Shown here one piece after another: positions 1,544-53,350 of a stretch of DNA of 64,000 bases (positions are counted from its first letter, which is position 1; every line of letters starts with the position of its first letter). Source of the DNA: the human T2T-CHM13v2.0 reference genome, Homo sapiens; assembly GCF_009914755.1 (NCBI RefSeq), contig NC_060925.1; one strand, 5' to 3'. Under the pieces are notes generated by a model. That model was not told where the DNA came from. It saw only the letters and a program-made list of their open reading frames with translations, and did no database searches. The translations under genes were made by a program, and so were the position numbers.

Positions 1544-2310
1544 AAGACAAATCAGGATTCAAAGAAGCAGAACCACAAGACATATAGAACTCCCTTAACC
1601 AAAGTACACTTTCAAAGGAAATGAATAAATTCTCAAAAATAACATTTTATAATAGAACACTATGTAATTTTTTAATAGACTACTTTTCAGAGCTCTTTTA
1701 AGTTCATACCAAAATTGAGCAGAAAGTACAGAGATTTCTTATATCCGCCCCACCCCGACACATGCACAGTCTCCCCCATCTTTAACATCACCCACTAGAC
1801 GGGTCCATTTGTTACGACTGATGAGCCTGCACTGACACATCATTATCATCCAGAGTCCATAGTTTACACCAGGGCTCACTCTTAGTGGCACACATTCTAT
1901 GGCTTTCTACAAATATCTAATGACGTGTATTCACCATTACAGTATCATAACGAATAGTTTCACTGCCCTAAAAAATCCTCCATGCTCTACCTATTCATCC
2001 CTCCCTCCCCTCAAACCCTCTCTGGCAATCGCTAATCTTTTTCCATAGCATTGCCTTTTCTGGAATGTCAGGTAGTTGAAGTCACATAGTAGGCAGCTTT
2101 TTCTTTTTTTTTATTATTATACTTTAAGTTCTAGGGTACATGTGCACAACGTGCAGGTATGTTACATATGTATACATGTGCCATGTTGGTGTGCTGCACC
2201 CATTAACCCGTCATTTACATTAGGTATTTCTCCTAATGCTATCCCTCCCCCCTCCCCCCAACAGGCCCCAGTGTGTGATGTTCCCCACCCAGTGTACAAG
2301 TGTCCATTGT

Positions 2311-35679: not shown

Positions 35680-36207
35680 GCTATACACTTCTGAGTTGTA
35701 GGAAGAAAGATTTAAATTCCACCAAGAAGGTCTTTCTATTGATTAGAGTAGTTCAGCAATAAAATGGACTTCCTTTATCTTTTTCTCTGAAACTGCTCTT
35801 CCTCCCTGCAACCCCCAGCGTATGCCCCAATCTGGTGAATGTCCCCACCAGCTCTCTGCTCATCTTGGCCGGGGACTAGTAGTCAACCTTGATTCATCCT
35901 CCTACAACCTGCATATCTAATTGGTGGACACTTCGGTTGCTCCTATTTCTGTGACATTTGTGGGCTTGGGATCCAGAGGACACGTATGAGGATGATGTGT
36001 GTGAAGTGGGTGATATTATTTTCAGGTCACCCTTCTGCCCCCCTGTCTTGCTGCTTTTGTTCAGGTTTTAAAACATCTCTTACCTGCACTACCACAGGAC
36101 ACTTGCAACTGGTCTCCTAGCCTCTGATCGTTCACACTGATACTCAGTAATCCTTCCGAAATGCAATCTGTTCCTGTGACTTCTCTACTTGAAAATCTCA
36201 CGAACTG

Positions 36208-36629
36208 TTTTTTTTTTTTTTTTTGAGACGGAGTTTTGGTCTTGTCTCCCAGGCTGGTCTTTGGTCAACTGTGTTTCCATTGTTGACCACAAGGGAGTCA
36301 GCAGAGGAGGTGTGGGTATCTTTTTTTTTTTTTTTTTTTTTTTTTTTGAGTTGGTGTCTCGCTCTCTTGCCCAGGCTGGAGTGCAGTGGCGTGATCTCGG
36401 CTCACTGCAACTTCCACCTCCTGGGTTCAGGCTATTCTTCTGCCTCAGTCTCTCGAGTAGCTGGCATTATAGGCATGCGCCACCACGCCTGGCTAATTTT
36501 TGTATGTTTAGTGAAGACAGGGTTTCACCATGTTGGCCAGGCTAGTCTCAAACTCCTGACCTCAGGTGATCCTCCCGTCTCACCCTCCCAAAGTGCTGGG
36601 ATTACAGGCATGAGCCACAGTGCCCAGCC
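36208..36629 (-). mobile_element. Chimeric AluS with two tails separated by 67 nt copied from 52172-52238
   Basis: Order on + strand: poly(T) and Alu stub 36208-36257, insert 36254-36320, poly(T) and full Alu 36321-36629; degenerate TSD cacgaactgtt (36199-36209) / tgcaaactatt (36631-36641). Confidence 0.9.
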
Positions 36630-37892
36630 CTGCAAACTATTAAGTTAGTTTAGAAGTTAAAAGTTGAGTGTGACTTCTCCTATTGCTCTAGAATTGGTAG
36701 CAGAGTCCATATTCTAAAGAAAGTCAGCAAATATTAGGGCCAGATCTTCCTGCACCCTCTTCATACACACACACACACATGCAACTAACCAGGTATTTGT
36801 AGGAGGCAAAGGAGCTGGCCCCACTGCAGTCTCTCACCACTCTAGTTTATATAAGGTAAGGGCCAGGGTATGGCCATAAAACCATTTCTAGTTTCATTGC
36901 TATTGCTATGGTTGTGGGGGAAAGGCAATGTTTATGCTGAGACTTTTTCTCCCCTCTCCCTGGTTCTTTCTTCTTCCCCTATGGAAGAGTAGAGTGCACA
37001 TCTGCATAGGTACTAGGCCTATCTGAGCAGGAAAAGTAATTGGAAAGAGAGGCAGAGCAGAGGGAAAGAGGGCAACAGGGGAGCAGCCTGCCAGCTGCCT
37101 TTTGAATGGCTGATGAAGTGTACCTTTTCCATGGAAGGCAACTGGGCGTGAGACATTTCCATTACCCCTCCAAGGGGGCTGCCTGCCAGCAAGGGTCCTG
37201 CAGCCTCAAGCAGCTGTGGATGAAACCTGGTGGGAGGTGAGAATGGCGGAGGCGGGTAAAGACCTGAAGCTGAACCCTAAACTCCTTTCCCATTCATGGG
37301 GAAGCTTGCAAGGCCCCCTAGGAATCCACACAGGTGCCCCCGCCTAGTGGTGGAATGCCAGAAAAAGGATAGGGGTAGAGGCCAAATGGCAAGCCGTGAC
37401 CATGCATCATGCAGGAGTTAGCACATGGAGGGCATCGACCTCTTCTGCTAGCCACAGGAGCTAACCAGGACTGGATCACAACTGCTCCCAGGTAAGTGAA
37501 GAAGCCTTTGCCGGTTTTATTTTTCCTGGTATCCTCTCTCTTACCCCGAAGGTCCAGGACCCTAAGAAACATGGGTAGGAGAAGAATAAAAGCTCTCACC
37601 CCTATTCCAAGACCTGGATCACAGTCTAGTTTCCAGAGTGGGAGGAGATTGTTTTATGTCAGATATGAAATTGGATTTTTGAACTGGACTGAAATGTACT
37701 ACTTAAGGAGGCTGAATATAAAGGAATCTGAACCATAACAAAGGTAGGAGGAATGGCTGGAGGAAGCGATGCCACTCCATCTTCATTCTACTAACTGATG
37801 CGCTACTCAGTTCATCAGGGTGTGGGCTCTGTCACCTTTGTAGCCTCATTTATTCCACTCCTTTCAGGATTCCCTGTATTCTAGCCTTACTA

Positions 37893-38267
<375 letters not shown>

Positions 38268-51342: not shown

Positions 51343-51870
51343 GGATTTTAGACTGTGTTCAATTCCTAAACTTGCAGGATACTCTTTAGCTGGGCTTATT
51401 CAATGGCACTGAATGAGAAGAATTGTTTTGTTTTTATCTTTCTGTATGTGGCTAGCCTCTTCACTCATGTCTAGACCCTGACACAGAGGCAGAGTGTTGA
51501 AAGCCAGGGACTTCCCTTCTGATCACAGGCACCATGAGCCAATGTGCAGAATTTGCTTCTGAATCTGAATGGCATTGATATACATCTGACTGGGGTGCAC
51601 ACATACCCTCTCCTCCAATTTCAGAGTCGTCAGCCAAGTAAAGGGAGCACTGGCTGCCCAGAAGGGAGAGGCCCCTTTCCAGACCCACTTCATCACAGTT
51701 CCCTCCGACTAAAACTGAACCTCATTACGAAGGAGAAGAACCACTTCTGAGAGCTGTTGGTAAACAAAATTTTAATGTAGTGTCTGGTGACAGCAAGGAA
51801 AGAGAGGAGGAAAAAACTGCTCTTCAGGTCAAATCCTATGAAAATAAGGACAGTTATCAAAAGATACCCA

Positions 51871-52171
51871 GCTGGGCGCGGTGGCTCACGCACAGGCGTG
51901 AAATCCCAGCACTTTGGGAGGCCGAGGCGGGTGGATCACAAGGTCAGGAGTTCAAGACCAGCCCAGCCAACATGGTGAAACCCTGTCTTTACTAAGAATA
52001 CAAAAATTAGCCAGCGTGGTGGTGGTAGCCTGTAATCCCAGCTACTTGGGAGGTTGAGGCAGAGAATTGCTTGAACCCGGGAGGTGGAGATTGCAGTGAG
52101 CCGAGATCACGCCACTGCACTCCAGCCTGGGTGACAGAGCGAGACTCCGACTCAAAAAAAAAAAAAAAAAA
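51871..52171 (+). mobile_element. AluSg-like; donor locus for the insert at 36254
   Basis: 'ggatcacaaggtcaggagttc'; TSD aaaagatacccag at 51859-51871 and 52168-52180. Confidence 0.9.
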
Positions 52172-52599
52172 GATACCCAGGCCTCCTCTGCTGACTCCCT
52201 TGTGGTCAACAATGGGACCACGGTTGACCAAAGACCAGTCTTATTAGCTGGGCATCGACTGCATGAGAGGGAGGCTGAGGCACATACTGGAAAGGATTGA
52301 CCATCCACTTACACCCTGCATGGCCCAGGCCTGTCACCCCTGAGGGGAAGGGACATCCCCCGCTGCCCGAGAGCTCAGCCTACAGCGTGCTGGCCTGCAC
52401 AATGCCTCAACCTGTGCCAGTGCCGTGTGTGTGTCAGGGACCCTGGAGGTGAGGGAGCCCCAGCAGCTGGTGGCTGTCACTCCCCTTTCACCCATGGCTC
52501 CTCGGGTAACAGTATTTGAAACAATGTACAAAAGCTATTTGGCCATGACAACTAAGGTTGCTGGCTGCAAATGTGTGATTGTCTGTTTGAAATGAGAAC

Positions 52600-53350
52600 A
52601 GCGTGGTGGATTGTTTAAGCCCATGAGCTTTGGTGTTAGACTGCTGGGCTTCAAATCCTACCTCAGTGTCCCCAGGATTAAACAGGTGAATTGTGACGTC
52701 TAGGTCAAAGGACTTATCTGAACATTAAACAGCATAATATGTCAAGAAGCATCAAACATATTTTACATGATGGCTGAAACATTATGAACACTCAGTAAAT
52801 GTGAGCTCTTTATGTTTTATATATATGTATGATATATTTCCCTGTTCCTAGATGGGTATAAACAGTGAAGAGTAATGATTAAGAGCACAGCTGGGATTGA
52901 GTCCTAGCTCCACCTTCTATAGCAGTGTGACTCCTCTCTGTGCCTCAGTTTCCTCATCTTGAAGATGTGGACAGTGCTGATATTACCTCACATGGCTGTT
53001 TTGAGGAGCAAATGGACCAAACCATGCACAGCATTTAGGATAGAGCCTGGCACATGGCGAGCCTGGTAAATCATGGTTATTATCATTATCATCATCATCA
53101 TAATTATTACAACAGATTCAGAGGAGAGGTCAAGATGGACAACGAAGGCCTTTTTCTCATTTCTCTGTTCAAACATTACTTGGGTGTATGAGGCATCGTG
53201 ATGACTTACATACATTGTATAATTTAATTGTCACTCAAGTCTGATAGTTGGCTGTTTTATTTATTTTAGAGATGAGAAATGTAAGATTCAGGCATTGGGG
53301 CCATTTCACCATGTCACTAAGTAACAAGGCTGGAAATCAACGGCAGACAG
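52600..53350. mobile_element. Cluster of MIR fragments
   Basis: 'cctctctgtgcctcagtttcctcatct', 'gcctggcacatgg' and reverse 'attttagagatgagaaa'. Confidence 0.65.

What the first reader, a model, noticed from the sequence alone, without database searches (positions are those of the whole stretch)
36199..36641. Double-tailed chimeric Alu with 67 nt copied in inverted orientation from the 3' flank of an Alu 16 kb away
Seen: 36254-36320 is the reverse complement of 52172-52238 (62/67 identical, no gaps), the DNA right after the poly(A) of the Alu at 51871-52171, including that Alu's TSD (gatacccag). In element orientation the locus reads: full Alu, poly(A), donor flank, a CCAG microhomology, a second Alu 3' stub, poly(A). 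The first tail shares a non-consensus base with the donor (gagt instead of gaga next to the T-run) and has the donor-type tail. The stub has an Sq/Sp-type tail (gagttt..gtcttgt), and the left arm has cctgacctcaggtga, unlike the Sg-type donor. Inference: a resident AluSq-like element received a one-sided conversion or template switch from the neighbour. A classical 3' transduction would end in plain poly(A), not in a second Alu stub.
Basis: partly seen in the sequence, partly recalled or inferred. Interest (0 to 1): 0.8.

Follow-up and report, generated by a model that had tools for sequence, protein, structure and literature searches.

The report
Alu patched from a neighbouring Alu
An old Alu repeat in an intron of SLC35F3 carries a 67-base copy of the DNA that lies next to another Alu 15.5 kb away, most likely the scar of a DNA-break repair that used the neighbour as template; it is a tidy example of a known process with no sign of function.

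Summary
Window 36254-36320 is the ungapped reverse complement of 52172-52238 (62 of 67). The 67-mer has only these two places in the 3.1-Gb assembly. The 52-kb Alu has a perfect 11-12-nt target-site duplication, so its flank is the original and the 36-kb stretch is the copy.

Read on the minus strand, the 36-kb locus is: Alu body, A27, 67 nt of donor flank, a 4-nt CCAG overlap, a 33-nt Alu 3' stub of a different tail type, A17.

Best reading (about 0.6): a resident Alu was broken near its 3' end and repaired from the inverted neighbour. Synthesis ran through the donor's 3' end, tail and 67 nt of flank, then rejoined at CCAG. This is ectopic gene conversion that overshot and ended by end joining.

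How far the copied tract reaches into the Alu body is only moderately supported: best break at column 228, with a wide interval.

RNA-based rivals (an L1 reverse-transcriptase template jump, or a cDNA patch) are not excluded, at about 0.2 together.

No target-site duplication could be shown for the composite, and primate orthologues could not be checked. It is a new instance of a known kind of event, of modest interest.

The parts
36208..36224 (-). Outer poly(A), 17 A; taken to be the resident Alu's original tail
   Evidence: A-run count; sequence
36225..36257 (-). 33-nt Alu 3' stub (about columns 259-290). Its tail type has the extra A and AAACTCC, recalled as Sq/Sp-like
   Evidence: The stub matches the 3' ends of many window Alus at 80-90%. 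The extra-A tail type is seen in 6 of 63 panel elements
36254..36257 (-). 4-nt junction overlap (CCAG in element orientation), shared by the stub and the end of the captured flank
   Evidence: these bases align both to the Alu consensus and to 52235-52238
36254..36320 (-). 67-nt copy of the donor's 3' flank, beginning with the donor's target-site duplication
   Evidence: 62 of 67 identical to the reverse complement of 52172-52238; only two places in the genome
36321..36347 (-). Inner poly(A), 27 A, joined to the donor's target-site duplication exactly as at the donor
   Evidence: junction read
36348..36410 (-). Alu columns 228-290: the part of the body most like the donor, inferred to be copied from it
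   Evidence: 5 of 63 mismatches to the donor against a minimum of 7 and a median of 12 for the other 61 elements. A 41-column identical run. Shared rare A at column 287. Coordinates
36411..36629 (-). Alu columns 8-227: the resident element's own 5' part, full length at the 5' end, with CACCTGAGG
   Evidence: 40 of 220 mismatches to the donor (18%), average for the panel; CT dinucleotide present
51860..51871 (+). Donor Alu 5' target-site duplication, AAAGATACCCA(G)
   Evidence: Read; identical to 52169-52180
51871..52153 (+). Donor Alu body; lacks the CT dinucleotide (recalled as Sg-like)
52154..52171 (+). Donor poly(A), 18 A
52172..52238 (+). Original 67-nt flank, whose first 8-9 nt are the donor's 3' target-site duplication; template of 36254-36320

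Best explanation
A resident, full-length, minus-strand Alu at 36.2-36.6 kb originally ended in what is now the 33-nt stub plus A17. It suffered a break or a stalled fork in its last 30-60 nt. This step is inferred.

The end carrying the 5' part of the Alu paired with the inverted Alu 15.5 kb away, using Alu homology. DNA synthesis then copied the donor's 3' end, its A-tail, its target-site duplication and 67 nt of unique flank. That this copying happened is shown by the sequence.

The new strand then left the donor and was joined to the other broken end at a 4-nt CCAG overlap inside the resident Alu's 3' end. The junction is shown; the pathway is inferred.

The result is a double-tailed Alu in which columns 259-290 occur twice, once donor-like and once as the resident's own stub. 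In mechanism this is one-sided ectopic gene conversion (synthesis-dependent strand annealing finished by microhomology end joining), or the equivalent replicative template switch (MMBIR).

The opposite polarity gives the same product and cannot be told apart: priming on the donor from the CCAG overlap and finishing by Alu-Alu annealing.

The event is old. The copy and its source differ at 10 of 130 positions.
For: 1. The 67-nt copy is real and unique: 62 of 67 identical, two places in 3.1 Gb.
2. The donor is the source: it has a perfect 11-12-nt target-site duplication on both sides of the 52-kb Alu. The copy carries the donor's tail-to-duplication junction, so the copied tract must cross the tail.
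3. The only copy lies 15.5 kb from its source. Passages of PMC8230782 cite an earlier genome-wide study that found Alu gene conversion acting mainly among neighbours within about 10 kb.
4. The flank is joined directly to an Alu stub at a 4-nt overlap, with no new poly(A) after the flank.
5. The end of the 67 nt is not a transcript end: the first TTTT after the donor tail is at 52761 and there is no A-run nearby.
6. Similarity profile of copy against donor: 40 of 220 mismatches in columns 8-227, 5 of 63 in columns 228-290, and 5 of 67 in the flank. The likelihood break point is at column 228, 2*dLL 7.95.
7. The donor is the nearest of 62 elements to the copy in columns 201-290 (10 mismatches, panel median 18).
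8. The 41-column identical run is the longest of the copy's 62 comparisons. It is reached by 2.3% of all 1953 pairs.
9. A rare A at column 287 is shared (4 of 63).
10. The main tail and the stub are of different types. The main body has C at column 252, no extra A and GAGAC. The stub has the extra A and AAAC.
11. In a small screen of 71 Alu 3' flanks in 264 kb, only this pair had exactly one extra local copy.
Against: - The support interval for the break point is wide, from column 191 to inside the flank. The tract may barely enter the Alu.
- Seen from the donor, 6 of 61 other elements are as close or closer in columns 228-290, because the donor is near consensus there.
- Of the copy's 6 non-consensus states in that stretch, the donor shares 2 while three unrelated elements share 3.
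- The main Alu, taken whole, is also consistent with an ordinary unconverted element that has the CT dinucleotide and a standard tail.
- No target-site duplication brackets the composite: 22% and 78% of random controls score as well. A single resident insertion is therefore not shown.
- The second shared rare base, column 123 T (4 of 63), lies outside the best-fit tract.
- Sequence alone cannot tell a DNA template from an RNA template.
Confidence: 0.6

Rival explanations
1. Aborted L1-mediated insertion with a template jump. L1 endonuclease nicked the A-tail of a resident, ordinary Alu. Reverse transcription of another Alu RNA (extra-A tail type) made A17 plus 33 nt. It then jumped at CCAG onto an RNA carrying the donor Alu and its flank: either a read-through Alu transcript or nascent SLC35F3 pre-mRNA, which holds the donor in sense orientation. 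It copied 67 nt and the A-run, and was resolved by annealing to the resident's tail or 3' end. This would be an Alu-associated flank transduction.
For: - The structure ends in a poly(A) preceded by a 5'-truncated Alu, as aborted insertions do.
- The junction has a 4-nt overlap, as expected of a template jump.
- The main Alu is compatible with an unconverted element.
- A duplication inside an A-tail would be invisible, which fits the lack of a detectable target-site duplication.
- Template-switch chimeras made by L1 are reported in the title and abstract of PMC4476161 and PMC13174262 (listing).
Against: - A retrotransposed copy has no known reason to land 15.5 kb from its source. Two 16-kb flanks out of 3.1 Gb is about 1 in 100,000, unless the template was local nascent RNA.
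- The shared rare A at column 287 (background 2 of 61) and the low mismatch count in columns 228-290 would be coincidence, or would need the jump to continue into the donor Alu.
- The 67-nt end is not a transcript end.
- A term search of PMC13174262 found no mention of Alu-Alu chimeras or read-through (0 hits).
Confidence: 0.13
2. Break repair by capture of a cDNA or RNA patch (class 2 templated sequence insertion). A break in the resident Alu was filled by a reverse-transcribed piece of a local transcript spanning the donor Alu's 3' end and flank, then joined by end joining.
For: Passages of PMC5110952 describe class 2 templated insertions with no target-site duplication, no poly(A) at the patch end and microhomology at junctions. 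Those features fit the CCAG junction and the missing duplication.
Against: - The cited class draws on distant genomic regions, with no preference for the neighbourhood.
- Here one end of the patch disappears into Alu homology instead of showing a second end-joining junction.
- Nothing in the sequence requires an RNA step.
Confidence: 0.07
3. Two or more unrelated events. An independent, severely truncated Alu (the stub) already lay at the site. Later a local inverted duplication of the whole donor Alu plus 67 nt was placed next to it, and the left arm was afterwards altered by divergence or further conversion.
For: Overall copy-donor identity is 83.6% over 384 nt, and the rare column 123 T is shared. 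Both could suggest a longer shared tract.
Against: - Columns 8-200 are no closer to the donor than to the panel average: 18 against a median of 21 mismatches in columns 8-122, and 17 against 17 in columns 123-200.
- A 2-nt subfamily-type indel differs between the two.
- This reading needs more events, and a coincidental join exactly at an Alu stub.
Confidence: 0.07
4. Chance match or assembly artefact.
For: None found.
Against: E 2.2e-19 against the whole genome. The two copies differ at 5 of 67 positions and have tails of 27 and 18 A, so this is not a recent misjoin of identical sequence.
Confidence: 0.01

Closest known systems
Interlocus (ectopic) gene conversion between Alu elements
   Same: A resident Alu takes sequence from another Alu without changing the donor. 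Neighbouring Alus are the usual partners: passages of PMC8230782 report 98 cases and cite a range of about 10 kb. The product is a mosaic of diagnostic positions.
   Different: Here the tract runs out of the repeat into 67 nt of unique donor flank and ends in a non-homologous junction. This duplicates the last 30 nt or so of the Alu and identifies the donor. Ordinary conversions stay inside the homology, and their donors are usually unknown.
One-sided invasion: homologous repair finished by end joining (long-tract conversion / SDSA with a microhomology finish) and MMBIR/FoSTeS template switching
   Same: One junction lies in homology and the other at a few bases of microhomology. Non-homologous donor sequence is copied, and the donor is left intact. 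The known background is Belmaaza & Chartrand 1994 and Nassif et al. 1994, which I saw only in the reference list of PMC4888836, and Richardson & Jasin 2000, recalled and not seen.
   Different: Those are experimental or pathogenic cases. This is an ancient, fixed germline example between 80-85% similar repeats in inverted orientation, small (about 157 nt) and copy-neutral elsewhere.
L1 or SVA 3' transduction
   Same: Unique DNA lying 3' of a retroelement is found next to a second copy of that element's tail.
   Different: No new poly(A) follows the flank, no target-site duplication is detectable, the 5' two thirds of the element are not donor-like, and the copy lies 15.5 kb from its source.
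L1 template-switch chimeras (U6-L1 type) and class 2 templated sequence insertions
   Same: Two templates are joined at a short overlap. For class 2 insertions there is also no target-site duplication (PMC5110952 passages; PMC4476161 listing only).
   Different: Those draw on abundant or distant RNAs and land anywhere. Here the template is the next Alu on the same chromosome, and one boundary is hidden in homology.

Membership tests
Ectopic Alu-Alu gene conversion | An Alu was already present at the acceptor site before the event (orthologous older state) | not testable with these tools
   No primate genomes are held. The target-site duplication test for a single resident insertion was not significant.
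Ectopic Alu-Alu gene conversion | Mosaic element: one part matches the donor and the rest does not | tested here: inconclusive
   Copy-donor mismatches are 5 of 63 in columns 228-290 and 40 of 220 in columns 8-227. The donor is nearest of 62 in columns 201-290. However, the interval is wide and the donor is near consensus in that stretch.
Ectopic Alu-Alu gene conversion | Donor left unchanged at its own site | tested here: met
   The donor keeps an intact 11-12-nt target-site duplication, its tail and a continuous flank.
Ectopic Alu-Alu gene conversion | Tract confined to the homologous repeat | tested here: not met
   67 nt of unique flank were copied. This is therefore an overshooting variant, not a plain conversion.
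One-sided invasion / homologous repair finished by end joining (or MMBIR) | One junction non-homologous, with a few bases of microhomology | tested here: met
   CCAG overlap at 36254-36257.
One-sided invasion / homologous repair finished by end joining (or MMBIR) | The other junction lies within homology, with no discrete breakpoint | tested here: met
   The Alu body is colinear with the panel alignment with no break. Only a change in mismatch density marks the transition.
One-sided invasion / homologous repair finished by end joining (or MMBIR) | Acceptor sequence duplicated around the insert | tested here: met
   Alu columns 259-290 are present twice, at 36379-36348 and 36257-36225.
Retroelement 3' transduction | Transduced flank ends in its own new poly(A) | tested here: not met
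   The flank is followed directly by the Alu stub.
Retroelement 3' transduction | Target-site duplication around the whole insertion | tested here: inconclusive
   The best candidate, AAYAGTT, is no better than 22% (16-mers) or 78% (40-mers) of random controls. Old duplications can decay.
Retroelement 3' transduction | The whole element derives from the source element | tested here: not met
   Columns 8-200 show average similarity to the donor, and the CT indel differs.
Class 2 templated sequence insertion | Both ends of the patch joined by end joining; template from a distant region | tested here: not met
   Only one end-joining junction is seen, and the template lies 15.5 kb away. The class definition is taken from passages of PMC5110952.

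The most novel reading that the evidence does not exclude
The locus is the fossil of an L1 reverse-transcriptase template jump. The jump went from an Alu RNA onto a local RNA that carried the neighbouring Alu and its flank: a read-through Alu transcript or nascent SLC35F3 pre-mRNA. That would make it an Alu-linked 3'-flank transduction. I did not see this kind of event described in the listings, or in the passages I read.
Probability: 0.13. Interest if true: 0.55.

Novelty: new member of a known kind. Interest (0 to 1): 0.3.

Why it matters
Donors of Alu-Alu gene conversion are almost never identifiable, because Alus look alike. Here the repair overshot into unique flank, so the donor, its distance (15.5 kb), its orientation (inverted) and one exact junction (CCAG) can all be read directly.

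That makes the locus a clean worked example of homology-started, microhomology-finished repair in the primate germline. It also suggests a simple genome-wide screen: look for Alu 3' flanks that recur beside another Alu tail. Such a screen would measure how often, and over what distances, ectopic repair uses neighbouring repeats.

It has no visible functional consequence. It lies deep in an SLC35F3 intron, outside the annotated lncRNA exons.

Tried and rejected
- **Target-site duplication for the composite.** The best local match (AATAGTT / AACAGTT) was no better than 22% of random 16-mers and 78% of random 40-mers.
- **Wider flank repeats.** Over ±300 nt, the best direct score was 12 and the best inverted score 13, against a shuffle 95th percentile of 12.5 and a maximum of 17.5. 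An 11-nt direct repeat, TGTGACTTCTC, on both sides is within that range.
- **Pol III terminator or A-rich priming site at the end of the 67 nt.** None: the first TTTT is at 52761 and the first AAAA at 52530.
- **Recalled PRDM9-type 13-mer.** 7 window matches, none in either Alu.
- **Subfamily assignment of the 5' two thirds of the 36-kb Alu.** In the 63-element panel, the positions that separate the extra-A-tail group (n = 6) from the rest all lie at column 252 or later. The body therefore could not be assigned.
- **Inversion by recombination between the two inverted Alus.** Rejected by reasoning: it would make chimeric Alus but would not duplicate the flank.

Full report

Yes. On the plus strand, 36254-36320 is the ungapped reverse complement of 52172-52238, with 62 of 67 positions identical. 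The repeat finder found the pair independently as an 88-nt arm at 93%, because the match runs on into the A/T run (I10).

A search of the whole assembly that holds the window (3,117,275,501 bases) gave 2 places: the query itself and the 52-kb site at E 2.2e-19. The tool warns that its counts are lower bounds for repeats. For a non-repeat 67-mer this still argues against a multicopy fragment. NCBI's masking, given with the finding, also stops at 52180, at the end of the Alu.

The two copies differ at 5 positions and the adjoining A-runs are 27 and 18 long. This is an old duplication, not an assembly misjoin.

**2. Which copy is the original?**

The 52-kb Alu (body 51871-52153, A18 at 52154-52171) is bracketed by AAAGATACCCA(G) at 51860-51871 and 52169-52180. 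This is a perfect 11-12-nt target-site duplication.

The 67-mer starts with the 3' copy of that duplication and continues into DNA that is contiguous at 52 kb. The 52-kb locus is therefore the source. The 36-kb stretch was copied after that Alu had inserted, and it was copied together with the tail-to-flank junction.

**3. Anatomy of the 36-kb locus (minus strand, 5' to 3')**

| Part | Window coordinates |
|---|---|
| Full-length Alu body | 36629 to 36348 |
| Inner tail, A27 | 36347-36321 |
| Captured flank | 36320-36254 |
| CCAG overlap, shared by the end of the flank and the Alu consensus | 36257-36254 |
| 33-nt Alu 3' stub | 36257-36225 |
| Outer tail, A17 | 36224-36208 |

The outer tail is followed by unique DNA. 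Alu columns 259-290 are thus present twice.

**4. Is the Alu body chimeric?**

I built a panel of 63 full-length Alus: 16 from the window and 47 from 200 kb of contig C19. This gave 301 retained alignment columns.

Copy against donor, by segment:

| Segment | Copy-donor mismatches | Comparison with the panel |
|---|---|---|
| Columns 8-122 | 18 | Panel median 21 |
| Columns 123-200 | 17 | Panel median 17 |
| Columns 201-290 | 10 | Panel median 18; donor is nearest of 62 |
| Columns 228-290 | 5 of 63 | Other 61 elements: minimum 7, median 12 |
| Flank | 5 of 67 | Not applicable |

- A two-rate likelihood scan puts the change at column 228 (window 36410), with 40 of 220 mismatches before it. 2*dLL is 7.95, but the 2-lnL interval runs from column 191 to inside the flank.
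- The 41-column identical run (columns 228-268) is the longest in the copy's 62 comparisons. It is reached by 2.3% of all 1953 panel pairs.
- Two rare non-consensus bases are shared: column 287 A and column 123 T. Each is carried by 4 of 63 elements.

Against this:
- The donor is close to the panel consensus in columns 228-290, with 3 differences.
- 6 of 61 other elements are as close or closer to the donor than the copy is.
- Of the copy's 6 non-consensus states in that stretch, the donor shares 2 while three unrelated elements share 3.

The case that the copied tract reaches tens of bases into the Alu is therefore moderate, not strong.

**5. Tail types**

Six of 63 panel elements have a tail with an extra A (…CAACAAGAGCGAAAC…), and all six have the CT dinucleotide in the left arm. 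In that group, column 252 is T in 5 of 6 and column 280 is A in 5 of 6.

- The stub has the extra A and the A at column 280.
- The main body has C at column 252, no extra A and G at column 280.

The main 3' end and the stub therefore come from different Alu types. If the stub is the resident's own end, the replaced tract must start before column 252, which fits the break point above.

The names Sq/Sp, Sx and Sg for these types are recalled and were not tested. In this panel no position before column 252 separates the groups. I could not show that the 5' part belongs with the stub.

**6. DNA or RNA template?**

Four results argue against classical retrotransposition with 3' transduction:
- No poly(A) follows the flank.
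- The 67-nt end is neither a Pol III terminator (first TTTT at 52761) nor next to an A-run.
- The 5' two thirds of the element are not donor-like, and a 2-nt indel differs.
- The only copy in the genome lies 15.5 kb from its source. For an unlinked insertion this has a prior of about 1 in 100,000 (my arithmetic: 32 kb out of 3.1 Gb).

A local DNA-templated event explains the proximity. Passages of PMC8230782 report 98 Alu conversions and cite an earlier study that found conversion mainly among neighbours within about 10 kb.

The product has one junction hidden in homology, one at 4 nt of microhomology, donor flank copied and acceptor sequence duplicated. This is what one-sided invasion finished by end joining, or an MMBIR-type template switch, would leave. 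The background is Belmaaza & Chartrand 1994 and Nassif et al. 1994, seen only as references in PMC4888836, and Richardson & Jasin 2000, recalled.

The polarity cannot be told. The event may have started in Alu homology and finished at CCAG, or started at CCAG and finished by Alu annealing.

**7. Rivals that remain**

- **L1 template jump.** An aborted L1-mediated insertion of another Alu RNA into the resident's A-tail could give the same structure. The reverse transcriptase would have to jump at CCAG onto local RNA; SLC35F3 pre-mRNA carries the donor in sense orientation. This would also hide the target-site duplication in the tail. It makes the shared column 287 base a coincidence (background 2 of 61), and it needs local RNA to explain the linkage.
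- **cDNA patch.** A class 2 templated insertion (PMC5110952 passages) is a weaker version of the same idea.
- **Separate events.** A whole-donor duplication placed beside an unrelated stub needs more events and conflicts.

**8. What failed**

- No target-site duplication for the composite.
- No significant flank repeats.
- No recalled PRDM9-type motif in either Alu.

**9. Age**

Copy and source differ at 10 of 130 positions: 5 of 67 in the flank and 5 of 63 in Alu columns 228-290. That is 7.7%, about 3.9% per lineage.

The two Alus differ from the mixed-panel consensus at 36 and 28 of 283 columns. With a recalled rate near 1e-9 per site per year per lineage, the event is tens of millions of years old, with a wide error. 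It should be shared by apes and perhaps by Old World monkeys.

**10. Rarity, in a small sample**

I took 60 nt of flank from each of 71 Alu 3' ends in 264 kb, out of 84 ends found.
- 60 flanks matched only themselves.
- 5 were multicopy.
- 4 gave no hit after masking.
- 2 had exactly one other copy, and those two are this pair.

**11. Verdict**

It is a well-preserved single instance of a known class of event, ectopic Alu conversion that overshot and ended by end joining. It is not a new kind of element.

I did not find an Alu conversion carrying donor flank described in the listings or in the passages I read. Those searches cover only open-access text.

Its value is as a donor-tagged example and as the seed of a genome-wide screen.

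Noticed in passing
window 51886-51901: The donor Alu's 5' end carries a short inverted template-switch mutation. Where the panel consensus reads TCACGCCTGT, the donor reads TCACGC followed by ACAGGCGTGA. The latter is the exact reverse complement of that consensus 10-mer, which creates a perfect 6-nt hairpin stem. The 36-kb Alu does not have it.
   Followed up: partly
window 36175-36185 and 36669-36679: An 11-nt direct repeat, TGTGACTTCTC, lies on both sides of the composite Alu but not adjacent to it. Its score is within the range of shuffled flanks, so it is probably chance.
   Followed up: yes
window 2000-2259, 23112, 30996, 33312, 34693, 63056: The recalled PRDM9-type 13-mer CCNCCNTNNCCNC occurs 7 times against 1.3 expected from shuffles. 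Some matches lie in C-rich low-complexity runs near 2.0-2.3 kb and three lie in Alu antisense sequence. None lies in the two Alus studied.
   Followed up: no
window 36369-36629 and 37975-38235: The 36-kb Alu also has a much closer inverted Alu partner 1.3 kb away (261 nt, 79% complementary, I1). That partner overlaps the start of the annotated lncRNA LOC107985363. It was not the template for the captured flank.
   Followed up: no
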